Positions 33,866 through 49,459 of a stretch of 64,000 nt of DNA are shown here, piece by piece (positions within the stretch are counted from its first letter, which is position 1; each line of letters opens with the position of its first letter). A program made the position numbers and the translations under genes. The notes under the pieces are model-generated. The model worked only from the letters and a program-made list of their open reading frames with translations. It was not told the origin of the DNA and did no database searches. The stretch spans positions 14,902-78,901 of the forward strand of contig JAMCQZ010000005.1 in assembly GCA_023380305.1 (NCBI GenBank). Direction: 5' to 3'. The stretch is from Patescibacteria group bacterium (lineage in GTDB: Bacteria; Patescibacteriota; Minisyncoccia; UBA6257; Colwellbacteraceae).

Positions 33866-35014
33866 TTACCCCAAAAATTGCATTAAAAGGGCTATCAAAG
33901 AACTGCGCGTCGACATGCAGATTAGAGCGGCTAAAAGCATATAGGGAGCAAAGGGGAAAGTTTTATAAATCTGTACTGTTATTTCCGGCTCTCCCGTGGG
34001 TATGGCGGCCAACGCCGTCACCTCGGCAGCGCTCAGCCCTTCCGGACCCCACGATCCCGAATTATCGCCCTGGTTAACGGCTGATAATTTTTCCTTGATA
34101 AGTGGTTCGGCAGAGGGACAAGGCATATCGCCCCTTTTAAGACACCTTAGCGGAACCGTCGAAATTTCTCTAGTCTGTATATAAAAAGCGATAGCCTGTT
34201 TGATAACCCTAAAGACAATCCACATAATCAATACCATCTGCACGAAGGAGAAGACTATCCCCCACTTGCCGAGCCAACCATAGTAGCCGATATAAACCAA
34301 GGGAATGGCGACGATCATCTTATCCAACCACTTGTTTTTTTTCAGATAATCCATCGCTTTTCTGAACAAAATCGCCATAGAGAAAAAAATGAATAGCGGG
34401 TTGGAAAATAGGGACTCAAATACTGTACCACTAAACGCTTTGGAAATTATTTGAAAAAAGGCGAACATCATAAAAAACATCATCAAAGAACTACCCAACT
34501 CTTTCAGTCGAAAAATGCGGGTCTTTCTTTTCTCCTCCAGAGATGATTTTTCATCAACGCGATGGTCAATCCGACGGAATCTTGTAAAATCTTGAAAATA
34601 AATAATCCCCGCTTTTAATACCAAAATGGCCAAAAGGGGAATAAAAAGATTGATCAATAGATTTATCGAAGGAAAAAATTTTATAAAACTGGCCGAATAA
34701 AATTTAAGGGGCATCAAAGCGGCGTAAACCATAAACAGCTTGGCGTCCCCTGCGGACCATAATTTTTTATCCCATAAAACGTAACCTACGACAATCGCCA
34801 AAGCGGCGTTTGATAAAACTTCAGACACATAATGGCTATTTTCCGGAAGACCGATAAAAAAATAGTTGTACAAAAAGACGAATATATAAGAAATCATCGC
34901 GCAACCTAATCCCGCGATAATTATCTTGTTAGGAATTCTGTTGTATCTGATATCCGTGTAAGCGCAGACGAGGCCTATTAAAAACATCAGCGCTATAAAA
35001 AACGCGTCTATCAT
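33866..35014 (-). CDS. A24-family (prepilin-peptidase-like) polytopic aspartic membrane protease homolog
   Basis: The first Asp motif is in YTDIRYNRIPNKIII and the second is in WSAGDAKLFMVYAAL, which resembles the GGDxKL motif. There are more than 8 transmembrane helices and a C-terminal extension. The gene overlaps rSAM-1 by 4 nt. Confidence 0.55.
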   Translation of the reverse strand: MIDAFFIALMFLIGLVCAYTDIRYNRIPNKIIIAGLGCAMISYIFVFLYNYFFIGLPENSHYVSEVLSNAALAIVVGYVLWDKKLWSAGDAKLFMVYAALMPLKFYSASFIKFFPSINLLINLFIPLLAILVLKAGIIYFQDFTRFRRIDHRVDEKSSLEEKRKTRIFRLKELGSSLMMFFMMFAFFQIISKAFSGTVFESLFSNPLFIFFSMAILFRKAMDYLKKNKWLDKMIVAIPLVYIGYYGWLGKWGIVFSFVQMVLIMWIVFRVIKQAIAFYIQTREISTVPLRCLKRGDMPCPSAEPLIKEKLSAVNQGDNSGSWGPEGLSAAEVTALAAIPTGEPEITVQIYKTFPFAPYMLLAALICMSTRSSLIALLMQFLG

Positions 35015-35958
35015 GATTTGGATGTGTTTTTGACGGCGACGATCGGATGATAAATAAAATCTTGGCCTCGGCTCATTTTAAAAGCGCCCATCGACGACCT
35101 GATCGGCTCAAACTCTTTATCTCCGATAAGTCGAAGATAATCATTATGAATCCCCATGCAATATTTCTTGTATAAACAGGTGGAACATTTTTTAGGAAAA
35201 GAGACTTCTGTAGCCGGTAAGGTCCGCCAGGCATGTGGCCAAAGATCCGACGGCAAGGCGCAAAGAGGAAAATGGTACAATCGAAGATCGTTGATTTTGA
35301 CGGCCCACTTGCGGATGCTTTTGGCCACCTCGGACTCGACATCCTGATAGGTTATCCCCACCCGCTTCAGATGATCCCCACACTGGCCCTCTAATTCATG
35401 AAAAATTAACACGACCGCGTTCAATCCCCTGAAACTCTTATAGATAAATTCCAATAAACCATCAAGTTTTTTGTAATTTTGTTTAATAATGACCGTCCTT
35501 GTCTCCACAAAATGACTATCGTTTCTGAAGCGCAAAATATTTTTCAATCCTTGAACAGCCTGGGGAAAACCACCTTTAACGCCGGTTATCTCGTCGTACA
35601 GTGCCGGCGTGTGACCGTGCATGGCGATTTCCAACTTTAAGTTTTCGACGGCTAAAACTTTTTTAGCAAAATCATCGTATGCGAACATCCGGCCGTTGGA
35701 AACGCAAACGATTTCGTTATCCGGAAATTCTTTCCTAATCCAATTTAAAAGTTGGACAAACTGCGGAACAATCGTCGGTTCTCCGCCGGTCAAATTAATT
35801 GATTCTCTGCTTTTAAAAAGTCGATCCGCGCAGTCTTCGATGCGCTTGATTAATTGATTATAACCGTAAGCGCGGCTATCTCGCGGATTATTGAACTCGG
35901 CGGGATTGGAGCACATTACGCACCGGTTGTTGCATCGATTCGTTATGCAAAACTCCAT
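35011..35958 (-). CDS. Radical SAM enzyme with a C-terminal SPASM/twitch-like Cys cluster (rSAM-1)
   Basis: CITNRCNNRCVMC matches the CxxxCxxC radical-SAM motif. The C-terminal Cys cluster is CALPSD...CSTCLYKKYCMG. Confidence 0.8.
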   Translation of the reverse strand: MEFCITNRCNNRCVMCSNPAEFNNPRDSRAYGYNQLIKRIEDCADRLFKSRESINLTGGEPTIVPQFVQLLNWIRKEFPDNEIVCVSNGRMFAYDDFAKKVLAVENLKLEIAMHGHTPALYDEITGVKGGFPQAVQGLKNILRFRNDSHFVETRTVIIKQNYKKLDGLLEFIYKSFRGLNAVVLIFHELEGQCGDHLKRVGITYQDVESEVAKSIRKWAVKINDLRLYHFPLCALPSDLWPHAWRTLPATEVSFPKKCSTCLYKKYCMGIHNDYLRLIGDKEFEPIRSSMGAFKMSRGQDFIYHPIVAVKNTSKS

Positions 35959-35970
35959 CTTACCGGATGA

Positions 35971-36213
35971 TTAAAAATTTACTTCTGAGGCGTCCTTATA
36001 TTCGGCTATCTCGGCCAAAGTGACTTCATAACGACGGGCTTGATCTAAAAGTTCTTCCCGAGCCTTGCGTTTGGCTTCCGCTATGTTGTCCGCCCACACC
36101 CAACCGACCACCTCGAAATGCTCTTTGCTTCTATAAGTGACGATATAAGTTTTTTCTCCTTTGTTTTTATTTTTTTTAGCGTTCATGCTTACGGTTTGTA
36201 TTATAAGCATCAA
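35971..36213 (-). CDS. Small hypothetical protein nested between rSAM-1 and rSAM-2
   Basis: The 80-aa ORF has a probable start at MNAKKNKNK near 36186. Confidence 0.35.
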   Translation of the reverse strand: MMLIIQTVSMNAKKNKNKGEKTYIVTYRSKEHFEVVGWVWADNIAEAKRKAREELLDQARRYEVTLAEIAEYKDASEVNF

Positions 36214-37180
36214 GCATCTTTTTTTGCTCGACGCTGATTTTTTTAACGGGCGACAATTCTTGATCGCCGTAATGCTTTAGATATTCGACCCATATACCCT
36301 CGCAGGCATTATACAATGCGCACCCGCCACAACGCAAAGTCTTTTTCCGAGCCCACTTTTTCCTCGATTCCAAAGCATCAAAATCAACAAAATCTTGGGC
36401 GATGTGTTCGGTATTGAAGGTTTTTGTTTCGTGCAACTCGCTGATTCGATTCAAATAATCAGGAAAATGGCAAAGCGGCACGTATCTTATATCCCAATGG
36501 AGCACATCCTTTTTCCCCCCGAGATCGAGGCATTTTCGGATATAAGGCGCCGCTTCGGATATTTTGGGAACCAGTTCCTCGAAATAACGTTTGGCTCCGC
36601 CTTCGTTGCAATCGACAAAAATGAATTCGGAATCAACGATGCCGTGGTTTAAAATAAATTTCCCTATCTGGGGCAGATAACGATAATTCTGTTTGACAAT
36701 AGTCGTGTTCGAACCGAAATGAAAATTAATTTGTTTCCGCTTAATAATTTCTTGAAGATTCGTCAACCCTTTTTTGAGCTGTTCGAAACTCCCCGGGGCT
36801 TGTGTCAGATAATCATGAATCTCCGGCTTGTGCCCGTGAATAGAAAAAACGACGCTGTTAAGACCGGCTTCCACAAGTTTTTTGGCGACCGATTTATAGG
36901 AAAACATCCGGCCGTTGGTCGCGATCATAATCGTATGAAAACCGATTTTTTTCGCAAAACCGACGATGTCGGGAAAGTCCGGTCTCATCGTCGTTTCCCC
37001 GCCGATGAGTTCGAGATAAACCGTGCCCCTCTTTTTGGCGGCGAATATTTCTTTTTTGATTTCATGCGTCGGTCTGACGGGCATACTCCTTTTGTCCTGT
37101 TCCATGCAAAACCGGCAATGATTATTGCAGGCATAACCCACGAAGATGACGCTTTTGGAGATTTTGCTTTCTTTCCTCAT
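36176..37180 (-). CDS. Radical SAM/SPASM-like enzyme (rSAM-2)
   Basis: GYACNNHCRFC, and C-terminal CGGCALYNACEGIW. The track ORF extends to 37342, and the start was trimmed to MRKESK to limit overlap with the upstream gene. Confidence 0.75.
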   Translation of the reverse strand: MRKESKISKSVIFVGYACNNHCRFCMEQDKRSMPVRPTHEIKKEIFAAKKRGTVYLELIGGETTMRPDFPDIVGFAKKIGFHTIMIATNGRMFSYKSVAKKLVEAGLNSVVFSIHGHKPEIHDYLTQAPGSFEQLKKGLTNLQEIIKRKQINFHFGSNTTIVKQNYRYLPQIGKFILNHGIVDSEFIFVDCNEGGAKRYFEELVPKISEAAPYIRKCLDLGGKKDVLHWDIRYVPLCHFPDYLNRISELHETKTFNTEHIAQDFVDFDALESRKKWARKKTLRCGGCALYNACEGIWVEYLKHYGDQELSPVKKISVEQKKMLDAYNTNRKHER

Positions 37181-37220
37181 TTTGATTCTATAAAAAGCCT
37201 GGGTGTCGACTATATTCCGG

Positions 37221-38117
37221 TCATATCTGCAATCCTTTCTCGCCGTATAAATCAAGGTAGTCCTGTAATATGCCATCGCATGAAGATTTGTAGGGACACT
37301 CGGCACACAAATTAATGCGTACTTTATTGGAGTTCTTTTCAAGACATGGAAAAAACAAATCTCTGGCGGTTTTCGGCAAGCTGCACGGTAAAAATTCGAC
37401 TAGAAGGAACTTAACCGGCGATTTTTGATATTTGTTTTTTTGGAGTACTCCGGCGACGTAACGGCTGAGAGTCGGCATATGACAGACGACACCTTTATCG
37501 CGGGATCGCTTACTCAAAGGCGCCACCCATAAAATGTTTATTTCCTTGACCCCCAAACGAATCAATAAATCGAGCGTCAACTCAAGGGTCGGATAATTAT
37601 GACGCGTGAGCGGAACATTAACGAGGATGCTCAAACCTGGTTTTCTCAAAGCCATCAAATTTTTGATCCCCTGAACCGTTTGCTTGAAACTGCCCGGAAC
37701 TTGAGTCATCAAATCATGCGTTTTCTCGTCGGCGCTGTTGAAAGAAATCCCCACCTGGTTGACGCCGCAAGCGATCATTCTTTTTGCAAAAGCCGGATAA
37801 GAAAGCAGGCGGCCGTTGGTGGCGACGCTCACCTGCCTGAATTTCAAAGTTTTTACAAAAGCCAGAAGCTTAAAGAAATCCGGCCGCAAAGTCGGCTCCC
37901 TACCCATTAGGCTTATAAAATCGTAATGGGCCCTGACTTGTTTAACCTCATCCTTTAACTCCTCCAAGCTTTTGTTCCGGAGATTTTTCAGATATTCATC
38001 GGCTTCGCTGCAAAATGAACAGTTATTGTTACAGGCGTAACCGCCGTAAATGTACGGACTGACATATTCGTGGCCTCGATCCGGCCACCTTTTTTTATCA
38101 TTCAAGCGTTTAGCCAT
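37221..38117 (-). CDS. Radical SAM/SPASM-like enzyme (rSAM-3)
   Basis: GGYACNNNCSFC, and C-terminal CAECPYKSSCDGI. The track ORF extends to 38162; the MAKRLNDKK start at 38117 leaves a 2-nt gap after the upstream stop. Confidence 0.75.
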   Translation of the reverse strand: MAKRLNDKKRWPDRGHEYVSPYIYGGYACNNNCSFCSEADEYLKNLRNKSLEELKDEVKQVRAHYDFISLMGREPTLRPDFFKLLAFVKTLKFRQVSVATNGRLLSYPAFAKRMIACGVNQVGISFNSADEKTHDLMTQVPGSFKQTVQGIKNLMALRKPGLSILVNVPLTRHNYPTLELTLDLLIRLGVKEINILWVAPLSKRSRDKGVVCHMPTLSRYVAGVLQKNKYQKSPVKFLLVEFLPCSLPKTARDLFFPCLEKNSNKVRINLCAECPYKSSCDGILQDYLDLYGEKGLQI

Positions 38118-39081: not shown

Positions 39082-40299
39082 TTATGGATTATCGTTTTTT
39101 ACGATCACGGCCATTATTTTCTTTTCTCGCAACGAATGCGCTAACGGCTGCAAATATCGCTCTATATAATCCGTTAATATAATCGCATTTAATTTGCCGT
39201 CCGCCAATCTTGATATTATCGCCTCGACATCGCCCGCATTTCTCAAACTGGCCCTGATTTTATTGCCCTTGAAGCTACGGGCGGTAACCGGCTTTAATCC
39301 GTCAAAACCGAATAATTCAATATACTCTCTCCAAAAACCCTGGCAGTAACCGGAAAGGATGCATCGCAAACAGTCCCTGTGTTTGTTTTTATAGAAATCT
39401 ACCGCTTCTTTTGACGACCATTCAAATTCATGAAAAACATCTTGACCGACCGCGCCAGCTACTTTTTCTTCTCCAAAAGACAATGATTGGAGAACCTTCT
39501 CTTCAAACCCCGGAATAATGCATAAAGGAAACTGGCCGCAAGCGGCTATACTCGTTTCATAATGATTTTGATTCAAAAAAATCAGAGCTTTCGTCAAAAA
39601 CGGTTTTAACAAACTAAACGGCACATAGATCCATTTATTTAAAACGGCATTTCCTTGAGGAAATGGGTAAGCTAAGGTGACGCTATGCACCGCCGGGAAA
39701 TTAGCGGAGATAAATGAACAAAACCTGGGCAAATAGCGAAAATTATCATTGGTAATCACGTGGTATACCGACATTCGGCGCTTGCTTTTAACGATAGCTT
39801 GCATGCCCTTGAACGTTTTCGAGTATGCTCCCGATAATCCGGTGATACGGTCGGAAATAACAGCGTTGTCGGCGTGCAACGAGACGCTAAAGACCAACTT
39901 GTGTTTAGTGTCCGCCTTAAAAACTTCTCCGGCGTAATGTTTATCGGCCATTCTGACAGCGTTGGTTAAAACCGAAATCGTCCTCAACCCTTTTTGCTTT
40001 TCCGCATAATCAATAATCTCGGGCAGATCATCGCGCAAGGTCGGCTCTCCGCCGGTTAACATAATTTCCTCTCCTCCGACTTCTGAAAAATCCTTAATAA
40101 CCCTTTTAACTTCTTTAAGATCCATCAAAGGAAAATTATGCTCGTTGCCTTTGATAAGGCAAAAATTGCAATTCTCATTGCATTGAGCGCCCAGGTTAAT
40201 ATAGAGGACTTCCGGAACGGCATCACCAGATCGTTCGAAAAACGTCTTTTTCTTGCCGGCGATCACTTTTTCAATTTTTTGAAGGGTGTTTTTTTTCAT
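39082..40299 (-). CDS. Radical SAM/SPASM-like enzyme with a C-terminal extension (rSAM-5)
   Basis: GAQCNENCNFC, then CLRCILSGYCQGFW, plus about 70 extra C-terminal residues. Confidence 0.8.
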   Translation of the reverse strand: MKKNTLQKIEKVIAGKKKTFFERSGDAVPEVLYINLGAQCNENCNFCLIKGNEHNFPLMDLKEVKRVIKDFSEVGGEEIMLTGGEPTLRDDLPEIIDYAEKQKGLRTISVLTNAVRMADKHYAGEVFKADTKHKLVFSVSLHADNAVISDRITGLSGAYSKTFKGMQAIVKSKRRMSVYHVITNDNFRYLPRFCSFISANFPAVHSVTLAYPFPQGNAVLNKWIYVPFSLLKPFLTKALIFLNQNHYETSIAACGQFPLCIIPGFEEKVLQSLSFGEEKVAGAVGQDVFHEFEWSSKEAVDFYKNKHRDCLRCILSGYCQGFWREYIELFGFDGLKPVTARSFKGNKIRASLRNAGDVEAIISRLADGKLNAIILTDYIERYLQPLAHSLREKKIMAVIVKNDNP

Positions 40300-41258
40300 T
40301 TTTCCGAGCCCAATAAATCAGCAATACAAGACCCGATATCTTTCTCCACCGCAGCCAAACCAAAAATCTGGGGGTACGGCTTCCAAATCCCGGCGCAACG
40401 TTTTTTCATAGAACAATCGGCGCAAACGCCGAGTCTTGTCTTATGGATATCCTCGTAAAGATCGCCTTTATTGCTAAAGCGTTGCGGATTATAACCGACC
40501 TGCTTGAACTCGTCCACGCGGCCTTGAGCGTCAAAAACCGTAATGTGTTGATCTTTAATAAGCCTTTTTCCGAGAACGCATACCGGAAAATCGAAAAACT
40601 CGACTTGGTCGAACCGATCGATGATCCCCGCCAGTCGGCGAATATTTAAAGAAAGCGTTTTGATATCAACGGCCAATTTATCATAAAATTGCTCGGCGTT
40701 ACCGAAAGGTATCAAATCGAGCAAGCCCCAAACGCGCACACCCAAATTCGAAAGAAATTCCCCCGTTTCCAAAAGATAGCCACAATTCAAACGACAGACG
40801 ACAGTATTGACGCTTAAGGTGACGTCTTTACGCGCCAAAATATTTTTGATGCCGGCGACGGTCTGTTTAAACGAATCCGGAGTCCTCGCAATGGCATTAT
40901 GTGTTTTAGCGTTCGGTCCGTAAAGCGTCAAAGTGATGCGGTTTAACCCTGCATCCGCAGCTTTATTTAAAAAACGTTCGTAACCGAACATCCGGCCGTT
41001 GGTGCTCATGGCAATTTCCGTAAAACCGCTCTTTTTAGCCGCGGCGATTAAAGCAAAAATATCCGGCCGGATGGTCGGCTCTCCGCCGGTGAATTCCACG
41101 CGCGCGTAACCGGATCGTCGTCCCTCGTCAATCAGTTTTAAGATATCCCGCGTATTTTTGTCCTTGTTCAACTTCGCTTGCGGCCGCAAAGAACAAAGCA
41201 AGCAATTATTATTGCAAGAGAATCCCGTCATAATTAGCCACAACTTACTTGTGTCCAT
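40296..41258 (-). CDS. Radical SAM/SPASM-like enzyme (rSAM-6)
   Basis: GFSCNNNCLLC, and C-terminal CADCSMKKRCAGIW. Confidence 0.8.
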   Translation of the reverse strand: MDTSKLWLIMTGFSCNNNCLLCSLRPQAKLNKDKNTRDILKLIDEGRRSGYARVEFTGGEPTIRPDIFALIAAAKKSGFTEIAMSTNGRMFGYERFLNKAADAGLNRITLTLYGPNAKTHNAIARTPDSFKQTVAGIKNILARKDVTLSVNTVVCRLNCGYLLETGEFLSNLGVRVWGLLDLIPFGNAEQFYDKLAVDIKTLSLNIRRLAGIIDRFDQVEFFDFPVCVLGKRLIKDQHITVFDAQGRVDEFKQVGYNPQRFSNKGDLYEDIHKTRLGVCADCSMKKRCAGIWKPYPQIFGLAAVEKDIGSCIADLLGSEK

Positions 41259-42264
41259 TTTCTCTTTTTATACTTTGAGTTTTTTCTAGGTCGCTGCTTT
41301 TAACTAAAATCGGTATATAGGGATGATCCTTCTTTTTCTTAATAAGACTCTTTCCGTCCTTATAGACCTCGAAGAAATCAGGCGTCATCGTCAAACGATT
41401 TCCCTCGACAATCTTTTTCTGGACCATCCGCAATTCTGCCAGATAAGAGCTGTCATTGTCTTGATAAAACTCGGCAGAAGTTATTCGCGGCTCCATTTTT
41501 TTATAGGCGATTTCGGAGTGCAGGAAATCGTCGCTTTGAAAATCGCCTTTTAATAAAATCCTGTCGGCACAATTCCAATAAAGCGCAGCATAATTCTTAA
41601 GCTGGTCTTCGGTTTCAGCGACAAAATCGGGCGCGACGTCTCTCATGGCGTCTAAAATAGCATCGACGTATTTTTTGCTCGGAGAACAATCCAGGCTACA
41701 AGGAAAATGAGGTATCAGAGACAATATAAAAACATTCAACTGCCAAGCTACTTTTTTCGATCTTTTCAACGATTCAACGGCCGGATTTCGAAAACCGAAA
41801 TTATCCGGGTTCGCATCGTTATTATTAAGATAATTTCCGAATTCGAGGCAACAGTCGGGATATCCCATGAGTTTCCCAAAACTTTTTCCATAACGGCTGT
41901 CGAGCATTTTCCAGTGATAATGAGCGACGGCGCTCAAAGCCTTTTTCCGGTCTTTAGAGATACCGATGATCAGGTTCCCGTCGCGAGGATCATCAAGACT
42001 GACTTCTTGGAAGATACCCCTCGGACTGTTGATAATGTATTTTCGACGGGAAAAAGCCATTTTTAACCCCAATTCCGAGCACAACTCTCCCAGTTTTTTT
42101 AATCTCGCGGGCGTGGAGACGTCATAGACACCGGTGTTAGCCTCGGCCATGGCCGGCTTGATGTCGTACACCACGCCAAGAAGCTCAAGCGACGACAAAT
42201 AAAATAACTGACCGATTTCCAAAACCTTATTGTAAACCTCTGTTTTATTTGTCGTTTTTGGCAT
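41245..42264 (-). CDS. Hypothetical protein with conserved Cys motifs, embedded in the rSAM array; not a radical SAM enzyme
   Basis: It has no CxxxCxxC motif but carries MGYPDCCLEFG and LIPHFPCSLDC. The track ORF extends to 42444, and the start was trimmed to MPKTTNK. Confidence 0.5.
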   Translation of the reverse strand: MPKTTNKTEVYNKVLEIGQLFYLSSLELLGVVYDIKPAMAEANTGVYDVSTPARLKKLGELCSELGLKMAFSRRKYIINSPRGIFQEVSLDDPRDGNLIIGISKDRKKALSAVAHYHWKMLDSRYGKSFGKLMGYPDCCLEFGNYLNNNDANPDNFGFRNPAVESLKRSKKVAWQLNVFILSLIPHFPCSLDCSPSKKYVDAILDAMRDVAPDFVAETEDQLKNYAALYWNCADRILLKGDFQSDDFLHSEIAYKKMEPRITSAEFYQDNDSSYLAELRMVQKKIVEGNRLTMTPDFFEVYKDGKSLIKKKKDHPYIPILVKSSDLEKTQSIKRENGHK

Positions 42265-43180
42265 GTCGGCGCGTTTTGACGACCGGTCGGAATTCTCCCC
42301 ATCCGAAAATATCTGGATATTCTCTCCACGGTCCTTCGCATATCTTATTATGCTTGCATTTAATACACAAAGAGCCCTTGGCTTTCCCGCGTTCGCGCCG
42401 ATACGTGGCATAATCTTTAATATCGATATTGGCGTCGAACACATGGGCGTCCGGTATAATCTGTTCGGCGATATAAGTCTCGTAACCGGCCATCAAACAG
42501 TATGGTATAGCTTCGGTCATGCAATTAACGCCCGCTTTCTTGCCTATATCTAAAGCTTCCTTGACGTACGGCATCACATCGGTCACTCGCGGAACGATTT
42601 CTTCTATCTGGCACAGATCGTGGGCGATCAAATTGTTGATGTGGATAAAAGCGCATTGGAATTGGTCAACGCCGAGCCGCACTAAAAGCCTGGCGATGTT
42701 CGGTAAATCTTTATAATTAATTTTGGTGATGACCGTATTCGTCATCACCCGCTTGCGAAGTCCAACAAGGTTTTTGATGCCCTGGACGGTCTGATCGAAG
42801 CTTCCTGGAGAACGCGTCAATTTGTCATGGATAGCCGCGGTCGAACCATGCAATGCCGGGCTGAAATCATCGGCTCCGGCGCGAATTATTTCTTTACAAT
42901 AATCAAGATAGGCGAACACCCGGCCGTTTGTCTGGATCTGAATGGGTTTATAACCCAACTTGTGGGCATAGGCCACTGCCTCCAAAAGCAACTCTTTTCT
43001 CAAGGTTGGCTCTCCTCCGGTGAAGACGACCTCGTCGCATCCTTCTTTCCAGCTCTGTTTCAAAATGGACTTTATCTCCTCGATCGGACGATTCGGATAA
43101 TGATATCTTTTATCTCCCTGAACGCAGAAAACACAATGATTATTGCACTGAAAACCCATTTTTAAATCCAACCTTTTCAT
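42245..43180 (-). CDS. Radical SAM/SPASM-like enzyme (rSAM-7)
   Basis: GFQCNNHCVFC, and C-terminal CIKCKHNKICEGPW. Confidence 0.8.
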   Translation of the reverse strand: MKRLDLKMGFQCNNHCVFCVQGDKRYHYPNRPIEEIKSILKQSWKEGCDEVVFTGGEPTLRKELLLEAVAYAHKLGYKPIQIQTNGRVFAYLDYCKEIIRAGADDFSPALHGSTAAIHDKLTRSPGSFDQTVQGIKNLVGLRKRVMTNTVITKINYKDLPNIARLLVRLGVDQFQCAFIHINNLIAHDLCQIEEIVPRVTDVMPYVKEALDIGKKAGVNCMTEAIPYCLMAGYETYIAEQIIPDAHVFDANIDIKDYATYRRERGKAKGSLCIKCKHNKICEGPWREYPDIFGWGEFRPVVKTRRHAKNDK

Positions 43181-45147
43181 AACGCTGTCTTATTAATCGA
43201 TTTTATCTTTGAAATTTGACAAAAATCCCGATAAATCTCTTCTCTATCCGCATACGCCTTAAAATTTTTGCGGCCCGTTTTTCCCGCCGCGAAGCGCACT
43301 TTGTCGTCCGCAACGCGATACAGTTCAAGACATTCCTTATAGGTTTGGGGCAATTCTAATTCCGCACAAAAGGACGCGTAGTTTTCCGGCCACAATCCTT
43401 TGGGAAGAGGCTCTGTTATTTTAAAATAGACCCGGTTTTTGCGTAAGGCCCTTAAAAATTGAAGGATTTTCTTGCCATTTTGAGGATTGATATCTTTAAG
43501 TTTTAGTTGAAAATTCAAAAGCACCGCCGTCAGTTCCTCTCGGCTGTTTTTATATTCGATTATCTTTTTTTTCAAGTCCTGAAGACGGTCTAATCGGTCG
43601 ACGATAATATAGGGATTTTTGGCAAGGTCTTCGCCGTTTTTACTCATTCGCAGTTCAAAATCTGTATACAACATAGAATAGAATAGTTTGCTCCCTCTGT
43701 ACGCCAAACAGGGTTTTTTATTAATCAAATAACGCTCGGCCAGATAGGCGAAGGCGTAAACAAGACCGTTTTTTTGATCGGCGTCGCAGCTGCGTTTCTC
43801 GGGGTCAATGCTTCCGTATTTCATGCCCAAGGCATACAAACAAATCGGCGAACAGGGAGACACTAAAGAGCACGAATCGCAGTGATTTATCGCAAACTGG
43901 TGATCAATCACATCTACCAATCGGTTAAGTTTCTTGAAATCCATTTTAATTCGTTTCGTCCCGCGATCATAACGCCCGATAAGAAAATCCTTCATAAAAG
44001 GATACTGTGTAAAATCCCAAGAGCTCGTATGCCGTGAACAGGACGACACATAGCCGTCAGGGTCAACAATAAAATAATTTTTGGTATAGATGCCGCAAGT
44101 CAACGTGTTACCCAGGGCACCGAAATTAGCCCCTCGTACGTTCATCCGCAACTCATCTTGAAGCTCCATAAACTTTTGAGCCTCTTTGAAATAAATCGTG
44201 GGGCGCTGGAAAGCTTGATAGGCTATCGATCCTTTCTTATCATCGGCCGTCTTATAAAGCTGTTCCGCAATGCCGCTGAAATTAAGCGAGCTGATATCCA
44301 ACGTCCTTACGCCCAATTGCCAAAAATAATTAATCACCCTCAAATCATTTTCATAAAATTCGTCAACAGCGGTGGTTCTCACCCTGAAGGGCGCCTTTTT
44401 TTTGACAAAATATTTGATTGTCTTTTCGACAAATTTACTACTCGCCCTACCGTTAGCCAACGGCCTATATTTGTCTTGGATAAAAGCCGGCCCATCGCAG
44501 GAAATCTGCGGAAAACCGGCATTATTAATCAGCCAATCCGCCACCGACCGAGAGATCACTCCGTTGGTCGAAATGGGCTGGATGACTACTTTGGGGATTC
44601 TTTTTTTTGCATAATCCAATATTTTTTTCAACAATTCAAACTCCAGGGTGTTCTCCCCTCCTCCTATCAACTTAAGGTTTAATTCGCCGCCGCAATATTT
44701 GGAGACGAAATCGATAGCAGCTTTCGCTATCGAAAACGGCATTATCTTGTTCTTTTCCCTCCGACCCGCTGACGCGTAACAATAACGGCACCTCAAATTG
44801 CAGTTCAGAGTTAAGTTCAATCCCAAATCTCTAAAATAATACGGCGGCTTATATATCCGCGGTCGATCGGTTTTAGGAACAATAATATTGAGATCTAAAA
44901 GTAGCTGGGGAATGGGTTCTGTCTCTGAAAAATGCCTGATATATTTGTCATAGTCTTCTAATGAAAATCTAAATATCTTGGCCAAGACAAAAGAAAAGAT
45001 GATAATTCCATCTCTCAAGGTCCATAAAGGAGTCAGATTCGGATTAATCTCAAACCTAATATTTTGAGGCAAGTTGAGTATCCTCCCGCCCTCTGCGCTT
45101 TCTACATGATAGAAACTTTTCTTTAAATCTATAATTTTTACCAACAT
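43177..45147 (-). CDS. Large radical SAM/SPASM enzyme (rSAM-8, 656 aa) with N- and C-terminal extensions; candidate HxsB/HxsC-type maturase
   Basis: LTLNCNLRCRYCYASAG, a SPASM-like cluster CGIY...CSRH...CDSCSLVSPCSPIC, and an extra ~100-aa N-terminal domain that could be a peptide-binding region. It lies immediately downstream of the precursor. Confidence 0.8.
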   Translation of the reverse strand: MLVKIIDLKKSFYHVESAEGGRILNLPQNIRFEINPNLTPLWTLRDGIIIFSFVLAKIFRFSLEDYDKYIRHFSETEPIPQLLLDLNIIVPKTDRPRIYKPPYYFRDLGLNLTLNCNLRCRYCYASAGRREKNKIMPFSIAKAAIDFVSKYCGGELNLKLIGGGENTLEFELLKKILDYAKKRIPKVVIQPISTNGVISRSVADWLINNAGFPQISCDGPAFIQDKYRPLANGRASSKFVEKTIKYFVKKKAPFRVRTTAVDEFYENDLRVINYFWQLGVRTLDISSLNFSGIAEQLYKTADDKKGSIAYQAFQRPTIYFKEAQKFMELQDELRMNVRGANFGALGNTLTCGIYTKNYFIVDPDGYVSSCSRHTSSWDFTQYPFMKDFLIGRYDRGTKRIKMDFKKLNRLVDVIDHQFAINHCDSCSLVSPCSPICLYALGMKYGSIDPEKRSCDADQKNGLVYAFAYLAERYLINKKPCLAYRGSKLFYSMLYTDFELRMSKNGEDLAKNPYIIVDRLDRLQDLKKKIIEYKNSREELTAVLLNFQLKLKDINPQNGKKILQFLRALRKNRVYFKITEPLPKGLWPENYASFCAELELPQTYKECLELYRVADDKVRFAAGKTGRKNFKAYADREEIYRDFCQISKIKSINKTAL

Positions 45148-45217
45148 AAAATTTTTTAGAATAGAGACATTCTAACGCGTAGAAAATGATCCGCAAGTTC
45201 CATCCAAAATTTTATTT

Positions 45218-45994
45218 TTATGGATAGAACTCGTATATGCCGCTATTGTGGCAACAAGACGAATAGTGGGCGGAATGGGATCCATGGGAAGAATGGGAGC
45301 CATGGGAAACATGGGAGCCATGGGAAACATGGGAACCGTGAGAAGAATGGGAAGAATGAGAAGAGTGGGAGCCATGGGAAGAGTGGGAGCCATGGGAAGA
45401 GTGGGAGCCATGGGAAGAGTGGGAGCCATGGGAGCCATGGGAAGAGTGGGAGCTGTGGGAGGAATGGGAGCCATGGGATCCATGGGAAGAGTGGGAGCCA
45501 TGGGAAGAGTGGGAGCCATGGGAAGAGTGGGAGCCATGGGAAGAGTGGGAGCCATGGGAAGAGTGGGAGCCATGGGAAGAGTGGGAGCCATGGGAAGAGT
45601 GGGAGCCATGGGAGGAGTGGGAGCCATGGGATCCGTGGGAAGAGTGGGAGCTGTGGGAGGAGTGGGAGCCATGGGAAACATGGGAACCGTGGGAAGTATG
45701 CGAAGAATGGGATGTATGTTGTCCTTTGCCGGCGACATTTTCAAACTGGCTTGTGTGGTTGGCCGCAGTCGGCGGCGCCGGAATAACCGTCTCATCTCCG
45801 GACTGATGCTGGGCGCCTCCGGTGATGTTTTGAAAATAACTCCGATGAGCGGCGGAGGCCACTTTCGTCAGCATCAAACCGAGCATCGCCAAACCGGCGC
45901 CCAACTCCAGGACGTTCTTTTTACTGATCCTGCCTTCTTCGCTGTTTAGAAAACACTCGATCTTCTTTTTAAATATCGGCAAGTTATTTTTCAT
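45218..45994 (-). CDS. His-Xaa-Ser repeat precursor-like protein (HxsA-like): signal-peptide-like N-terminus plus ~50 tandem H-x-S triplets
   Basis: 258 aa. The N-terminus KKNVLELGAGLAMLGLMLTKVASAA resembles a signal peptide. The C-terminal ~150 aa are almost purely (S-H-G-S-H-S)n with occasional T or V, and the protein ends AHYSSCCHNSGIYEFYP. It is co-oriented with the rSAM genes and tightly spaced between them. Confidence 0.7.
   Translation of the reverse strand: MKNNLPIFKKKIECFLNSEEGRISKKNVLELGAGLAMLGLMLTKVASAAHRSYFQNITGGAQHQSGDETVIPAPPTAANHTSQFENVAGKGQHTSHSSHTSHGSHVSHGSHSSHSSHSSHGSHGSHSSHGSHSSHGSHSSHGSHSSHGSHSSHGSHSSHGSHSSHGSHSSHGSHGSHSSHSSHSSHGSHGSHSSHGSHSSHGSHSSHGSHSSHSSHSSHGSHVSHGSHVSHGSHSSHGSHSAHYSSCCHNSGIYEFYP
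45268..45718. repeat. Tandem 18-nt (2 x 9-nt) DNA repeat of about 24 copies that encodes the His-Xaa-Ser repeats
   Basis: The unit GGGAGCCATGGGAAGAGT recurs with minor variants. All four frames are open, and the minus frame gives SSHGSH. Confidence 0.9.
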
Positions 45995-46000
45995 GAAGAG

Positions 46001-47464: not shown

Positions 47465-47465
47465 T

Positions 47466-47717
47466 CTATAAAATGGCTTTCATTTCCGCCAAGGCGCGAT
47501 TTGCTATTTCATCGGCGATCAGGCTGGCGTCAAACGGCTTCTTGTCCTTTACAAAGACACTCACGTTGATCGACGCTCTGGCGTCGTCGATCTCCAAACG
47601 AGCCAGGCCCTTAAATTGTCTGGCTGCTTTTGCCACGGATTCACGATTATAAAACTTTTTGTTGAAACGGATCAATCTCCCCGGCTGGACCCTTGAAGCA
47701 GTTGATTTGAGCGTCAT
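47466..47717 (-). CDS. Small hypothetical protein of 83 aa
   Basis: Co-oriented, with a 1-nt gap to rSAM-9. Confidence 0.4.
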   Translation of the reverse strand: MTLKSTASRVQPGRLIRFNKKFYNRESVAKAARQFKGLARLEIDDARASINVSVFVKDKKPFDASLIADEIANRALAEMKAIL

Positions 47718-47720
47718 CGG

Positions 47721-48287
47721 TTATTTTTTCGCTTTCTGCGTTTTTTTCTTCTCCGCCGTTTCCGCGTTTGAGACAGAAGCGGAATCGGCCGCGTATTTTT
47801 CCTCCCAAGGAACGGCAATCTGCATCGGGTCTTCTTCCCAGGCCTCGGACTGGTCCGCTGCCGCTACCCCGGCCTCGTCCTCCACAACCGGCAATTCTTC
47901 GGGGTTAATGTCTTCATCTTCCTCCGTCTCTGTTACCGGAAATACGTTTATCTCTCCCGAAGCCCCGAGAAGGGCGGCGCCGACGATATATTCCCTCAAC
48001 TTAGCGTTTCTTTTTACGATCTGCTGACGGAGACTGTAATTAACGAGCTCATTTAAAAATTCTGATTTTATTTCCCGACTATCGCCGAAGCTCGCCTCAT
48101 CCTTGCTTTTTAAGCTAACAATGATCTTCTTGTCCGGATCGCCGTCCAAAAAAACATAAGCCCTGTCCAGAAAAACATAAGCGGCGCCGTAAATCGCTTC
48201 CAACGGATAAATCTTAGGATTGACGACAACTTTAATTTCTTTGTTTTCGGGTTGAGATTTTTTAACCGTATTCTTCCGTTTTGTCAT
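47721..48287 (-). CDS. Hypothetical protein with an acidic C-terminal half; possible HxsD-like component
   Basis: It contains FLNELVNYSLRQQ, which resembles the LLNDYxLRE motif I recall as the TIGRFAMs label for HxsD. This needs an HMM check. Confidence 0.4.
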   Translation of the reverse strand: MTKRKNTVKKSQPENKEIKVVVNPKIYPLEAIYGAAYVFLDRAYVFLDGDPDKKIIVSLKSKDEASFGDSREIKSEFLNELVNYSLRQQIVKRNAKLREYIVGAALLGASGEINVFPVTETEEDEDINPEELPVVEDEAGVAAADQSEAWEEDPMQIAVPWEEKYAADSASVSNAETAEKKKTQKAKK

Positions 48288-48298
48288 AAGAATAGAAA

Positions 48299-49459
48299 TT
48301 AGATCGGATTACTGACTTTACAACAAAGCATATACCCGGAAGTCAATGCTACACCAGACCAGGTGTAAAAACCAGAGGGACAGGAGGTAGTGCCGCCGCC
48401 GCTCGTGTAAGCGACTAAATTACAAATGTTGGCGTTCCCGGTAACCGTCAAGGTGCCGTCGATCGAGGCGTTATTGTCTCCGGGGTCGGTGTCTCCGCCG
48501 ACATGCAAACCGCCGTTAATAGCAAGTTTGGCCACCGGATTGGTCGTGCCAACGCCGACGTTTCCGTTAGTCAATACCAGGATGTTGCTGAATTGGTCGG
48601 CGCCGGTGCTTTTATTTATATATGACCAAATTAATGAGCCGCTAGTCACGGCGGTTCCCACGGTATGTAATTTGTAAGAATAAGTGGTGTCCTGATCAAA
48701 CAACACACCTCCTGCGCCAGCCACGGAAGTGCTATTCTGAAAACGAGCGGTATAGCTGGTCGCCGTATTCCCCGCAGAAGCAACCTGCAGTTTTGCTCCG
48801 GGAGCGGACGTCCCGATGCCGATGTTACCGCCGCTAGGCGCAATTATAATGTCGCCTTTCGTGGCATTTGTGGTGGAATCTAAAGTAAGCTTCCCAGAAG
48901 CGTCATTGCTGCCGAAAACACTTAAACTATTGCCCGTGCCGAAAGCGTTGATTTGGGAATTTGTCGCGCTTCCGGAAAGAATTAATCCGTTAGTACCGGA
49001 AGCTCCATAAATTCTAAGATTCTGATCATTAACGGCTCCATTATATATAATCAAGGTGTTGTTCTGAGGTTGAATATGCGTATATGAAGCGCTCGTGGAA
49101 TCAGAAATACGCTTATTGCCATTCAACATAATATCGTTGCCACCGATATTTAAGTCGCCCGCCGTTGTCACCGAATAACTGGTCGATGGCGCCACGCCTA
49201 CCCCCAGGTAAGTGCCGATTTTTGCGTTACCATTAACATCCAGATTATATCCTGGAGTCGCCGTTCCAATGCCAACAGTTCCGTCAGCTTTGATGTAGAT
49301 TACGTTCGCTGGCGCCCCAGACTCGATCACAAAACTGCCTCCACCCGCAGGCGGCAAAGCCGTCGGATCCTGCCAAGCCAAGGCCACGGGTTGAGCCGCC
49401 AGCCCAAAAATCGACCCGATGCTCAAAAAAACGACAGCAACGATGATTTTCTTATTCAT
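48299..49459 (-). CDS. Secreted Gly/Thr/Asn-rich beta-helix-like repeat protein with a Cys-containing C-terminus
   Basis: A signal peptide, then recurring GN(I/V)GIGT(T/S)xPxAKLxV-type repeats, and a C-terminus ...CNLVAYTSGGGTTSCPSGFYTW...MLCCKVSNPI. Confidence 0.5.
   Translation of the reverse strand: MNKKIIVAVVFLSIGSIFGLAAQPVALAWQDPTALPPAGGGSFVIESGAPANVIYIKADGTVGIGTATPGYNLDVNGNAKIGTYLGVGVAPSTSYSVTTAGDLNIGGNDIMLNGNKRISDSTSASYTHIQPQNNTLIIYNGAVNDQNLRIYGASGTNGLILSGSATNSQINAFGTGNSLSVFGSNDASGKLTLDSTTNATKGDIIIAPSGGNIGIGTSAPGAKLQVASAGNTATSYTARFQNSTSVAGAGGVLFDQDTTYSYKLHTVGTAVTSGSLIWSYINKSTGADQFSNILVLTNGNVGVGTTNPVAKLAINGGLHVGGDTDPGDNNASIDGTLTVTGNANICNLVAYTSGGGTTSCPSGFYTWSGVALTSGYMLCCKVSNPI

What the first reader, a model, noticed from the sequence alone, without database searches (positions are those of the whole stretch)
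45218..45994. Precursor-like ORF with about 50 consecutive His-Xaa-Ser triplets encoded by an 18-nt tandem DNA repeat
A 258-aa minus-strand ORF has a signal-peptide-like N-terminus (KKNVLELGAGLAMLGLMLTKVASAA) and a ~90-aa linker. Its C-terminal ~150 aa are almost entirely (SHGSHS)n, meaning His every third residue followed two positions later by Ser, and the protein ends AHYSSCCHNSGIYEFYP. At the DNA level this is about 24 copies of GGGAGCCATGGGAAGAGT. The ORF sits 6 nt after one radical-SAM gene and 70 nt before another, on the same strand. This matches what I know of the TIGRFAMs His-Xaa-Ser system: an HxsA repeat protein matured by paired radical SAM enzymes HxsB and HxsC, with HxsD. The product of that system has never been chemically characterised. 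Here the repeat tract is unusually long and the maturase set is far larger than the canonical pair.
Basis: partly seen in the sequence, partly recalled or inferred. Interest (0 to 1): 0.9.

Follow-up and report, generated by a model that had tools for sequence, protein, structure and literature searches.

The report
Giant His-x-Ser repeat protein cassette
A tiny-genome (Patescibacteria) bacterium encodes an exported protein with about 50 consecutive His-x-Ser triplets inside a conserved block of about 15 genes holding nine radical-SAM enzymes, an expanded and largely unannotated relative of the recently characterised HXS anti-phage system.

Summary
ORF 45218-45994 (-) encodes 258 aa with His at every third residue 51 times in a row, from an 18-nt tandem repeat of 23.9 copies. 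The HxS frame is the selected one: His codon positions 1-2 never vary, and dN/dS against a sister-species orthologue is 0.06.

It is a His-Xaa-Ser-type system. HxsB, HxsD and an HxsD-like protein pass NCBIfam cut-offs, and HxsA passes the HxsA4 model. It is not the canonical four-gene system: canonical HxsA does not match, and none of seven HxsC-like enzymes reaches an HxsC cut-off.

The cassette (33866-48287, -) holds nine intact radical-SAM genes, a DUF483-like protein with no matching solved fold, a 71-aa ORF and an A24-type aspartyl protease. Each HxsC-like paralogue has a one-to-one orthologue in other Patescibacteria, and several have one in a DPANN archaeon. Arrays of 42-58 triplets recur there.

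Copy number is uncertain or variable: 49 versus 51 triplets between two near-identical assemblies. The gene is missed or called in the wrong frame in all five public records with long arrays.

The claim that the product was never characterised is outdated (Li et al. 2026: +8 Da, anti-phage). This is a new variant of a known kind. The function in this organism is inferred, not shown.

The parts
45218..45994 (-). HxsA-type precursor, 258 aa. Leader aa 1-27 (45914-45994). Hydrophobic segment ending ASA|A, aa 28-49 (45848-45913). Linker aa 50-92 with two copies of H-x-S-[YQ]-F-x-N-x-x-G-x-G-Q-H-x-S (45719-45847). His-x-Ser array aa 93-245 (45260-45718). Cys-Cys tail aa 246-258 (45221-45259).
   Evidence: frame and selection; NF038313 HxsA4 89.2 bits against cut-off 55 and NF038309 HxsA3 49.5 against 65; leader consensus from 87 sequences
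45276..45696 (.). 18-nt tandem DNA repeat, 23.9 copies, encoding (HGS-HSS)n
   Evidence: one unit shorter in near-identical assembly L008
46001..47464 (-). HxsB, radical SAM/SPASM maturase, 487 aa; CX3CX2C at aa 100 and CX2CX5CX2C at aa 424
   Evidence: TIGR03978 492.5 bits against cut-off 370; 38% identical to Aeromonas HxsB; motifs
47466..47717 (-). HxsD-like small protein, 83 aa
   Evidence: NF038315 48.3 bits against cut-off 41; orthologues in L001, L010, L011, L058, L059
47721..48287 (-). HxsD, 188 aa: HxsD core, acidic linker and a conserved C-terminal DPxxIAVPWEEKY motif
   Evidence: TIGR03976 63.1 bits against cut-off 50; named HxsD by NCBI; motif; AF2 pLDDT 86
43177..45147 (-). Second radical SAM/SPASM enzyme, 656 aa, immediately downstream of HxsA. 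Candidate modifier of the Cys-Cys tail (inferred).
   Evidence: Best NCBIfam hit PapB ranthipeptide maturase, 114.6 bits, far below cut-off; CX3CX2C and CX2CX5CX3C motifs; co-varies with the HxsA tail type
42245..43180 (-). HxsC-like radical SAM, 311 aa. The most conserved paralogue: 53-66% identical across Patescibacteria, Elusimicrobia, Schekmanbacteria and an Aenigmatarchaeote.
41245..42264 (-). DUF483-like protein, 339 aa, function unknown. Conserved in the cassette and fused to a radical-SAM or methyltransferase domain in some homologues.
   Evidence: AF2 pLDDT 92.4; no convincing match to a solved fold
40296..41258 (-). HxsC-like radical SAM, 320 aa
39082..40299 (-). HxsC-like radical SAM, 405 aa
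38110..39081 (-). HxsC-like radical SAM, 323 aa
37221..38117 (-). HxsC-like radical SAM, 298 aa as called in L008 (the ORF is open to 38162)
36176..37276 (-). HxsC-like radical SAM, 366 aa as called in L008 (the ORF is open to 37342)
35971..36186 (-). Small conserved ORF, 71 aa (EKTYIVTYRSxEHFEVVGWV...AEIAEY), directly upstream of the enzyme closest to canonical HxsC. Possible small partner subunit (inferred).
   Evidence: no family found
35011..35958 (-). HxsC-like radical SAM, 315 aa; the paralogue closest to canonical HxsC
   Evidence: TIGR03977 181.9 bits against cut-off 267.9; 24% identical to Aeromonas HxsC
33866..35014 (-). A24 (GxGD-type) aspartyl peptidase-like polytopic membrane protein, 382 aa. 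Candidate leader or signal-processing protease (inferred).
   Evidence: PF01478 33.2 bits against cut-off 26.5; D21 and the W-x-A-G-D90-A-K-L-F motif conserved in 8 orthologues (D21, W, G, D90, K and F invariant; second A and L in 7 of 8) from Patescibacteria, a deltaproteobacterial MAG and a Woesearchaeote; recurs at the cassette end
48299..49459 (-). Upstream 386-aa Gly/Thr-rich protein with an N-terminal hydrophobic segment. Membership of the cassette is uncertain.
   Evidence: 11-nt gap to HxsD; first 51 aa are 90% identical to a 618-aa protein at the same position in L059, and the rest has diverged; no family found

Best explanation
This is the precursor gene of an expanded His-Xaa-Ser (HXS)-type protein-maturation cassette carried by a Patescibacteria (CPR) genome.

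Shown: the frame is under purifying selection; HxsB, HxsD and the HxsD-like protein meet curated family cut-offs; nine radical-SAM genes carry intact CX3CX2C motifs and C-terminal Cys motifs; the cassette is tightly packed on one strand; each paralogue is conserved one-to-one in distant lineages.

Inferred mechanism:
1. HxsA is made with a conserved 27-aa leader (KKKIECFLNSEEGRISKKN) that recruits the cytoplasmic maturases.
2. HxsB and the two HxsD-type adaptor proteins act with seven non-redundant HxsC-like radical-SAM enzymes. Together they install covalent changes on His and Ser side chains, repeated along about 50 H-x-S units. The precedents are the +8 Da change on SHRSS in E. coli HxsA and the His-C2-to-residue-3-Cbeta crosslinks that triceptide synthases make on H-X-X motifs.
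3. The 656-aa SPASM enzyme next to the gene acts on the Cys-Cys tail.
4. The short hydrophobic segment ending ASA|A directs export. The leader or signal is removed by signal peptidase or by the cassette's own A24-type aspartyl protease.
5. The mature product of about 200 aa sits at or outside the cell envelope. It has 55 His and only 2 Lys/Arg, so its calculated charge is about +2.5 at pH 7 and about +25 at pH 6.

The most likely role, by analogy with E. coli HXS, is an envelope-level barrier to incoming phage DNA. I put about 0.35 on that specific role and about 0.8 on the identity of the molecular system.
For: Frame and selection. Family scores.

A portable leader: the leader is conserved in 87 distinct sequences and in 46 species genomes across several phyla. 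The same leader with HxsB and HxsD also accompanies non-HxS cores that begin A-H-x-S-C-W.

Non-redundant enzymes: nine intact radical-SAM motifs, and intergenic gaps of 70 nt or less. The seven HxsC-like paralogues are only 20-33% identical to each other. Each has a reciprocal-best orthologue at 44-61% identity in L056 (all seven) and in L058, where three are fused into one 1055-aa protein. Several have orthologues in an Aenigmatarchaeote.

Conservation of the long array: the sister species keeps the whole cassette at 59-83% identity and a 48-53-triplet array in three independent assemblies.

Tail enzyme: only the SPASM enzyme next to HxsA is swapped between the two species (27% identity), and its type tracks the tail type.

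Protease: the catalytic Asp motifs of the A24-like protein are conserved.

Experimental precedent: E. coli HxsA needs HxsB, HxsC and HxsD for N-terminal processing, periplasmic export, the +8 Da change and defence (PMC13128918). Triceptide synthases HaaB, HtkB and YhhB crosslink His-C2 to Cbeta of residue 3 (PMC11499958).
Against: No biochemistry exists for this variant. No HxsC-like enzyme reaches a curated HxsC cut-off.

The mature protein lacks both the Lys/Arg-rich repeats and the peptidoglycan-binding domain on which the E. coli DNA-trapping model rests.

The cassette sits in a syntenic housekeeping neighbourhood in at least two species, not in a variable defence island. PADLOC has no matching model. 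No relative was found on viral contigs.

The +8 Da shift is not what a simple cyclophane crosslink (-2 Da) would give.

Signal-peptide status rests on reading the sequence only. The leader lacks a classical prepilin cleavage motif. HxsD resembles a Pcc1/KH-like adaptor only weakly and is not a PqqD-type leader-recognition element.
Confidence: 0.8

Rival explanations
1. The molecular system is the same, but its role is metal handling. The exported, radical-SAM-modified poly-His polymer would bind or buffer Ni, Zn, Cu or Fe at the cell surface, or act as a metallophore-like product, rather than block phage.
For: 55 His in about 200 residues and almost no other charged residues. The Cys-Cys tail. 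Conserved chromosomal synteny typical of a physiological function rather than a defence island. No PADLOC match and no viral association.
Against: The only experimentally studied homologous system is anti-phage. If the imidazoles are crosslinked at C2 or otherwise modified, metal binding may change. No metal transporter or metal regulator was identified among the cassette genes I annotated.
Confidence: 0.25
2. It is a structural or adhesive surface fibre of episymbiotic Patescibacteria/DPANN cells. The A24-type protease would cleave after the invariably small residue just before the hydrophobic segment (..LELG|AGLAML..), as with a prepilin. The crosslinked HxS rod would then stay membrane-anchored or polymerise.
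For: The A24-like protease, with both catalytic Asp motifs conserved, recurs at the end of the cassette across bacterial and archaeal loci. Position +17 after the FLNSEEG motif is always G, A or S and is followed by a hydrophobic stretch. An adjacent, variable surface-type protein lies upstream. Some HxsA proteins are fused to a C-terminal domain of about 330 aa.
Against: There is no canonical [KR]-G|F-T-L-x-E prepilin motif and no Glu at +5. The hydrophobic segment is short and is followed by AxA, which fits Sec/signal peptidase I better. No pilus-assembly ATPase or platform gene lies in the cassette.
Confidence: 0.15
3. The HxS ORF is not the real gene. Either the repeat is non-coding, or the gene lies on the opposite strand or in another frame, as the public annotations have it.
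For: Gene callers chose an antisense 227-aa ORF in the near-identical source record (L008), and other frames or strands in L056, L059, L060 and L061. Four frames are open.
Against: Synonymous variation fits only the HxS frame. dN/dS is 0.06 in that frame. The in-frame leader is conserved across phyla and meets the HxsA4 cut-off. His and Ser are invariant while the middle residue and the codons drift between species. All indels are multiples of 9 nt.
Confidence: 0.01
4. The extreme length (51 triplets) is an assembly artefact of a short-read metagenome. The true array would be much shorter, like the 12-16 triplets seen in some relatives.
For: Two near-identical assemblies differ by one unit. 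A Logan contig ends inside the array. A close relative appears with 12 triplets on a 3.3-kb contig (L007), while the species-representative genome has at least 25 plus a run of N in the array (L010).
Against: The longest perfectly periodic stretch is 134 nt, interrupted by unique variant units that anchor reads. The sister species gives 53, 53 and 48 triplets in three independent assemblies from different samples. Runs of 58, 46 and 42 occur in other lineages.
Confidence: 0.07

Closest known systems
Canonical HXS anti-phage system (hxsD-hxsB-hxsC-hxsA; Haft & Basu 2011 TIGRFAMs; Li et al., Nat Commun 2026, PMC13128918)
   Same: An HxsB orthologue (38% identical to Aeromonas HxsB and above the TIGR03978 cut-off). 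HxsD is present. HxsC-related radical-SAM enzymes are present. The substrate has an N-terminal export signal followed by in-register His-x-Ser repeats. The gene order starts D-B.
   Different: About 50 repeats instead of 5-7. The repeats lack Arg/Lys. There is no peptidoglycan-binding domain. A different, conserved 27-aa leader precedes the signal segment, and the protein ends in a Cys-Cys tail. HxsA follows HxsB directly. There are seven divergent HxsC-like paralogues, none above cut-off, instead of one. Extra components are a second SPASM enzyme, a second HxsD-like protein, a DUF483-like protein, a 71-aa ORF and an A24 protease. The hosts are Patescibacteria/DPANN, whereas the paper reports 99.7% Pseudomonadota.
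NCBIfam variant models HxsA4 (NF038313), HxsA3 (NF038309), HxsC4 (NF038332) and HxsD_rel (NF038315)
   Same: The ORF and all tested relatives that carry this leader, except one Elusimicrobiales homologue (20.5 bits), pass the HxsA4 cut-off. The model spans leader, hydrophobic segment, repeats and C-terminus. The HxsD-like protein passes HxsD_rel.
   Different: The N-terminus falls below the HxsA3 cut-off (49.5 against 65). The best HxsC4 score is 166.6 against 500. I found no published description of these variant families, or of the nine-enzyme cassette, in the searchable literature.
Triceptide (three-residue cyclophane) RiPP systems: HaaB, HtkB, YhhB radical SAM/SPASM synthases (PMC11499958)
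   Same: A three-residue motif with an aromatic first residue (His), often repeated, is modified by a SPASM radical-SAM enzyme. HxsB gives weak hits to the YhhB, GrrM/OscB and AmcB models (44-54 bits).
   Different: Those scores are far below the family cut-offs, and the PapB, SCIFF and CcpM models score higher. The substrate is an exported protein of about 200 aa, not a short peptide. The only measured mass shift in an HXS system (+8 Da) is not a simple -2 Da crosslink.
Ranthipeptide / SCIFF-type thioether maturases (PapB, ScfB, CcpM)
   Same: The 656-aa enzyme next to HxsA is a SPASM radical-SAM enzyme whose best hits are these Cys-directed maturases. The precursor ends in a Cys-containing tail.
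   Different: 114.6 bits against a cut-off of 340, so it is not a member. Action on the tail is inferred only from enzyme-tail co-variation in five loci.

Membership tests
Canonical His-Xaa-Ser system (TIGR03976-03979) | HxsB radical SAM/SPASM maturase (TIGR03978, cut-off 370) | tested here: met
   492.5 bits over the full length for 46001-47464
Canonical His-Xaa-Ser system (TIGR03976-03979) | HxsD small protein (TIGR03976, cut-off 50) | tested here: met
   63.1 bits for 47721-48287; named HxsD in the NCBI record
Canonical His-Xaa-Ser system (TIGR03976-03979) | HxsC radical SAM maturase (TIGR03977, cut-off 267.9) | tested here: not met
   The best of seven paralogues scores 181.9 bits (35011-35958); the others score 66-112. 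24% identical to Aeromonas HxsC.
Canonical His-Xaa-Ser system (TIGR03976-03979) | HxsA repeat protein (TIGR03979, cut-off 121.65) with a peptidoglycan-binding domain | tested here: not met
   No TIGR03979 hit at E <= 0.01. No Pfam domain except a sub-threshold collagen hit.
Canonical His-Xaa-Ser system (TIGR03976-03979) | Radical-SAM-dependent covalent modification and processing of HxsA, plus anti-phage activity | not testable with these tools
   Known only for E. coli (PMC13128918)
NCBIfam HxsA4 (NF038313, exception-level model) | Whole-protein score at or above 55 bits | tested here: met
   89.2 bits, partly driven by the low-complexity repeats. Orthologue L059 scores 88.9 with leader-to-repeat alignment; relatives score 60-134, except one Elusimicrobiales homologue at 20.5.
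NCBIfam HxsA3 (NF038309) | N-terminal domain score at or above 65 bits | tested here: not met
   49.5 bits on aa 5-102
NCBIfam HxsC4 (NF038332) | Score at or above 500 bits | tested here: not met
   Best scores are 166.6 and 165.4 bits
Radical SAM superfamily (PF04055) | CX3CX2C cluster motif and a Pfam match above the gathering score, in all nine enzymes | tested here: met
Peptidase A24 (GxGD aspartyl protease) | Pfam PF01478 above the gathering score, and two conserved catalytic Asp residues | tested here: met
   33.2 bits against 26.5. D21 and the G-D90 pair are invariant in 8 orthologues. Activity and substrate were not tested.
Type IV prepilin-like substrate | Class III signal: [KR]-G|[FML]-[TS]-L-x-E, with Glu at +5 | tested here: not met
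   Only a small residue before the hydrophobic stretch is conserved; there is no Glu at +5
Triceptide (3-CyFE) systems | The maturase meets a cyclophane-synthase family model (YhhB, GrrM/OscB or AmcB) | tested here: not met
   44-54 bits against cut-offs of 310-445

The most novel reading that the evidence does not exclude
A cassette of about 15 genes, conserved across Patescibacteria and exchanged with DPANN archaea, forms a nine-enzyme radical-SAM assembly line. It would convert a ribosomally made poly-(His-x-Ser) chain of about 50 units into a heavily and repetitively crosslinked, exported polymer, processed by its own GxGD protease. That would be a new class of 'mega-repeat' RiPP-like envelope material whose chemistry and role (pH-switchable polycation, metal binder or attachment fibre) differ from the four-gene E. 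coli HXS defence system. The portable leader would serve several unrelated core types.
Probability: 0.3. Interest if true: 0.85.

Novelty: new variant of a known kind. Interest (0 to 1): 0.68.

Why it matters
1. The chemistry of the HxS modification has been open since 2011. In E. coli it is still only a +8 Da shift at one site on a protein that is hard to obtain. A substrate with about 50 in-register sites would yield enough modified residue for NMR or hydrolysis-based structure work.

2. Seven ancient, non-redundant HxsC-like paralogues conserved one-to-one across lineages imply a multi-step pathway rather than one modification. Nine to eleven radical-SAM enzymes around one precursor is, to my knowledge, exceptional.

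3. The cassette occupies about 14 kb in organisms whose genomes are typically under 1 Mb. It is shared with DPANN archaea at up to 61% identity, so it is probably important for the envelope biology of these episymbionts.

4. Gene callers miss the precursor in every long-array record I examined. Surveys based on HxsA proteins, such as the reported 99.7% Pseudomonadota, therefore under-count this branch.

Tried and rejected
- PADLOC: no HXS models; only weak viperin-type radical-SAM hits.
- Rfam over the whole window: two tRNAs and nothing near the locus.
- Viral contigs: no relative of the leader.
- Exact-sequence look-up of HxsA: not on record, because the gene is not called in public records.
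- HxsD fold: only weak Pcc1/KH-like matches (E 0.016), so the idea that it is a PqqD-type leader-recognition element is not supported.
- A24-like protein and HxsD against PDB sequences: nothing significant.
- Hairpin after the HxsA stop (z = -3.56) as a precursor-enriching attenuator: not conserved, because in L059 the stop abuts the next start codon.
- Promoter and terminator scan: counts equal the shuffled expectation.
- Classical prepilin cleavage motif in the leader: absent.
- Correlation between a Cys tail and mere presence of a second SPASM enzyme: not clean across phyla. Only the enzyme-type versus tail-type co-variation within the clade held.
- A second leader-type precursor in the window: none.
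- Literature on radical SAM in Patescibacteria/CPR, on histidine-rich proteins and on DUF483: nothing relevant.
Full report
**1. The observation**

His occupies every third position 51 times in a row (aa 93-243): 49 consecutive H-x-S, then HSA and HYS. The middle residue is S (23), G (22), V (3), T (2) or Y (1). Tandem Repeats Finder gives an 18-nt unit, 23.9 copies, at 45276-45696. The stated distances to the flanking radical-SAM genes, 6 nt and 70 nt, are correct.

**2. Which frame is real**

Four frames are open across the repeat. Public gene callers chose the wrong one. In the near-identical GenBank MAG contig (L008, GCA_023480935.1, 'Patescibacteria group bacterium') a 227-aa antisense ORF is annotated in place of this gene.

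The sequence decides for the HxS frame.
- Over the 51 nine-nt units, the first two bases of the His codon and the first two of the Ser codon are essentially invariant, while the His third base is T30/C21.
- 54.5% of pairwise unit differences are synonymous in this frame, against 5% or less in the other three open frames.
- Against the orthologue of a sister species (L059), the first 95 codons have dN/dS 0.061, with 41 of 57 differences at third positions.
- The in-frame N-terminal domain is conserved across phyla.

**3. Is the length real**

The window and L008 are 99.91% identical over 21.5 kb. They differ by one 18-nt unit plus a few substitutions inside the array, giving 51 versus 49 triplets. 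A Logan assembly of SRR10267473 reproduces HxsB and the first 15 or so triplets, then breaks. The exact count is therefore uncertain or polymorphic.

The order of magnitude is sound.
- The longest perfectly periodic stretch is 134 nt.
- Three independent assemblies of the sister species give 53, 53 and 48 triplets.
- Other lineages have His-every-third runs of 58 (Colwellbacteria, L056), 46 (L046), 42 (L058) and at least 36 on one side of a gap, with 12 more before it (L011).
- All length differences are in frame.

**4. What surrounds it**

From 48287 down to 33866 on the minus strand the genes overlap or are separated by 70 nt or less. In order they are:
- HxsD (TIGR03976 63.1 bits, cut-off 50)
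- an HxsD-like protein (NF038315 48.3, cut-off 41)
- HxsB (TIGR03978 492.5, cut-off 370)
- HxsA
- a 656-aa radical SAM/SPASM enzyme
- an HxsC-like enzyme of 311 aa
- a DUF483-like protein (339 aa)
- HxsC-like enzymes of 320, 405, 323, 298 and 366 aa
- a 71-aa ORF
- an HxsC-like enzyme of 315 aa
- an A24-type peptidase-like membrane protein

All nine radical-SAM proteins keep CX3CX2C and a C-terminal CX2CX5C motif, extended to a SPASM-type motif in HxsB and the 656-aa enzyme. G+C content is 0.42-0.47 in the cassette against 0.48-0.53 in the flanks. The flanks are housekeeping genes: RNase III, NusB, RNase HII, DnaE, SecA and MurB.

**5. Related loci**

A scan of one genome per species with the leader pattern FL[NS]SEEG[RK][IV] found 46 loci. 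They lie in MAGs labelled Saccharibacteria or Azambacteria (Patescibacteria), Myxococcota, Elusimicrobia, Woesearchaeota, Poribacteria, Bdellovibrio and Schekmanbacteria. Runs of 3 to 46 in-register triplets follow the leader in the loci that carry an HxS core.

Multi-enzyme cassettes with five or more radical-SAM genes accompany the precursor in Patescibacteria, Elusimicrobia, Schekmanbacteria and an Aenigmatarchaeote.

The seven HxsC-like paralogues of the window are only 20-33% identical to each other. Each has a reciprocal-best orthologue at 44-61% identity in L056 (all seven) and in L058, where three are fused into one 1055-aa protein. The archaeal locus L057 has orthologues of the 311-, 320- and 298-aa (C313) enzymes, the 656-aa enzyme and the DUF483-like protein at 44-61%. 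The paralogues are therefore ancient and non-redundant, which argues for a multi-step pathway.

The sister species L059 keeps every cassette protein at 59-83% identity, with one exception. The SPASM enzyme next to HxsA is only 27% identical. That enzyme's type tracks the HxsA tail:
- window 656 aa and L057 648 aa (44% identical) go with the tails SSCC... and ANCCC...
- L010 565 aa and L059 559 aa (58% identical) go with SCTPVA and SCSPNID.

This is the basis for assigning the tail to that enzyme. It rests on few loci.

**6. The precursor's anatomy**

Across 87 distinct sequences the N-terminus reads KKLPxIKKxIxxFL[NS]SEEGKI[TS]KK. A position that is always G, A or S follows, then a hydrophobic stretch of about 10-14 residues, then usually AxA. 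I read this as a maturase-recruiting leader fused to a Sec-type signal. No predictor was available to test that reading.

The mature part begins A-H-x-S-[YC]-[FW]. In the window it contains two copies of a motif H-x-S-[YQ]-F-x-N-x-x-G-x-G-Q-H-x-S, and similar motifs precede the array in relatives.

The same leader, still accompanied by HxsB and HxsD, is also attached to Cys/Asp/Tyr-rich cores, His/Cys repeats and Trp/Asp-rich cores. Some HxS arrays are fused to a C-terminal domain of about 330 aa. The leader is therefore portable.

**7. Accessory proteins**

*DUF483-like protein.* It has 77 homologues, mostly from Patescibacteria plus an Aenigmatarchaeote. Some are fused to a radical-SAM or methyltransferase domain. 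Its AF2 model is confident (pLDDT 92.4), but no solved fold matches convincingly.

*HxsD core.* It models as a small alpha/beta unit ending in a long helix, with only weak Pcc1/KH-like matches.

*A24-like protein.* Its two catalytic Asp residues (D21 and D90 within the W-x-A-G-D-A-K-L-F motif) are invariant in eight orthologues from bacteria and archaea.

**8. Comparison with what is known**

Haft's His-Xaa-Ser system is now characterised in E. coli. [quoted passage not shown] A +8 Da change maps to one SHRSS motif. The system blocks phage DNA entry. It is reported as 99.7% Pseudomonadota, with the order D-B-C-A (PMC13128918).

A canonical Aeromonas plasmid operon that I retrieved has a 192-aa HxsA with seven HxS in a row, rich in Arg, plus a peptidoglycan-binding region. 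Its HxsB is 38% identical to the window's HxsB, and its HxsC is 24% identical to the 315-aa paralogue.

The window's system shares HxsB, HxsD and the logic of an exported HxS substrate. It fails the canonical HxsA and HxsC models. It fits NCBIfam's rare-variant model HxsA4, as do all but one of the tested relatives. No paper in the searchable library describes this branch.

Mechanistically, the three-residue H-x-S period matches the aromatic-X-X motif of triceptide synthases. HaaB, HtkB and YhhB link His-C2 to Cbeta of the third residue (PMC11499958). That is an analogy, not a membership.

**9. Function**

The molecular identity is well supported: a radical-SAM-matured, leader-guided, exported HxS-repeat protein. 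The biological role is inferred.

Anti-phage gatekeeping is the only demonstrated role of a homologous system. Here, however, the mature protein has 55 His and only two Lys/Arg, giving a calculated charge of +2.5 at pH 7 and +25 at pH 6. It has no cell-wall-binding domain and sits in conserved housekeeping synteny. Metal handling and a structural or attachment role remain live alternatives.

**10. Verdict**

This is a new variant of a known kind, and interest is moderately high.

Noticed in passing
window 45218-45994; L008 11516-12199; L056 30-566; L059 6573-7416; L060 6573-7287; L061 357-1155: In all five public records with long arrays, the HxsA gene is missed. An antisense ORF or another frame is annotated instead. 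Short arrays (L001, L007, L057) are called correctly. As a result the family is nearly invisible in protein databases: about 50 clusters among 1.84 billion representatives.
   Followed up: yes
window 35971-36186 (-): Unannotated small ORF of 71 aa (EKTYIVTYRSxEHFEVVGWV...AEIAEY), just upstream of the HxsC-closest enzyme. It is conserved at the same position in L059 (17813-18013), L056 (13567-13764) and L058 (16370-16588). No Pfam or NCBIfam family matches.
   Followed up: partly
window 30848-33260 (-), with 33296-33865: The 2-oxoacid:ferredoxin oxidoreductase alpha/gamma and beta genes follow the A24-like gene and a 189-aa membrane protein, with gaps of 35 nt or less. The same adjacency of A24 peptidase, then (ferredoxin), then oxidoreductase occurs in Colwellbacteria L056 and in L059. 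This could be a dedicated low-potential electron supply for the nine radical-SAM enzymes, or only inherited synteny.
   Followed up: partly
window 47721-48287 (-), aa 110-188: Patescibacterial HxsD proteins carry an acidic linker and a nearly invariant C-terminal motif DPxxIAVPWEEKY, which the 96-aa canonical HxsD lacks. It may be a docking peptide.
   Followed up: no
L020 9965-10615; proteins P0091, P0098, P0108, P0112, P0116, P0117, P0123: The same leader is attached to cores without HxS arrays: Cys/Asp/Tyr-rich cores, His/Cys repeats and Trp/Asp-rich cores. Many of these begin A-H-x-S-C-W. In L020 such a precursor still has HxsD, the HxsD-like protein, HxsB and the A24-like protease nearby.
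   Followed up: partly
L058 4045-5610; proteins P0084, P0092, P0123: In some lineages the HxS array is fused through a Cys-Pro-Phe junction to a conserved C-terminal domain of about 330 aa, of unknown function (..CPF[IV]xxWNGxxFxxENNILPQSE..).
   Followed up: no
window 48299-49459 (-): A 386-aa Gly/Thr/Ser-rich protein with an N-terminal hydrophobic segment lies 11 nt upstream of HxsD. Its first 51 aa are 90% identical to a 618-aa protein at the same place in L059, but the rest is unrelated. This looks like a variable surface protein on a conserved anchor.
   Followed up: partly
window 34000-48000: The cassette has G+C of 0.42-0.47 against 0.48-0.53 in the flanks. Its proteins are up to 61% identical to those of an Aenigmatarchaeote (L057). 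Both points suggest lateral transfer between Patescibacteria and DPANN archaea.
   Followed up: partly
L016, L018, L023, L026-L031, L033-L034, L037-L039, L041-L045, L047, L049, L052 (Myxococcota / 'Deltaproteobacteria' MAGs): Many Myxococcota genomes carry leader-plus-(HGS)n proteins ending in GSW, with no HxsB or HxsD detected on the same strand within 10 kb. The maturases may lie elsewhere or may be of another type.
   Followed up: no
window 45140-45235 (-): A 12-13-bp hairpin spans the HxsA stop codon (z = -3.56 against shuffles). It is absent in the sister species, where the stop abuts the next start codon.
   Followed up: yes
L001-L006 (metagenome contigs): A different expanded variant: HxsD, HxsD-like, HxsB, a 342-aa protein, HxsA (113 aa), four radical-SAM enzymes, a methyltransferase, a 464-aa protein, a B12-binding radical-SAM enzyme, a U32-family protein, a 258-aa protein and a 701-aa radical-SAM enzyme.
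   Followed up: no
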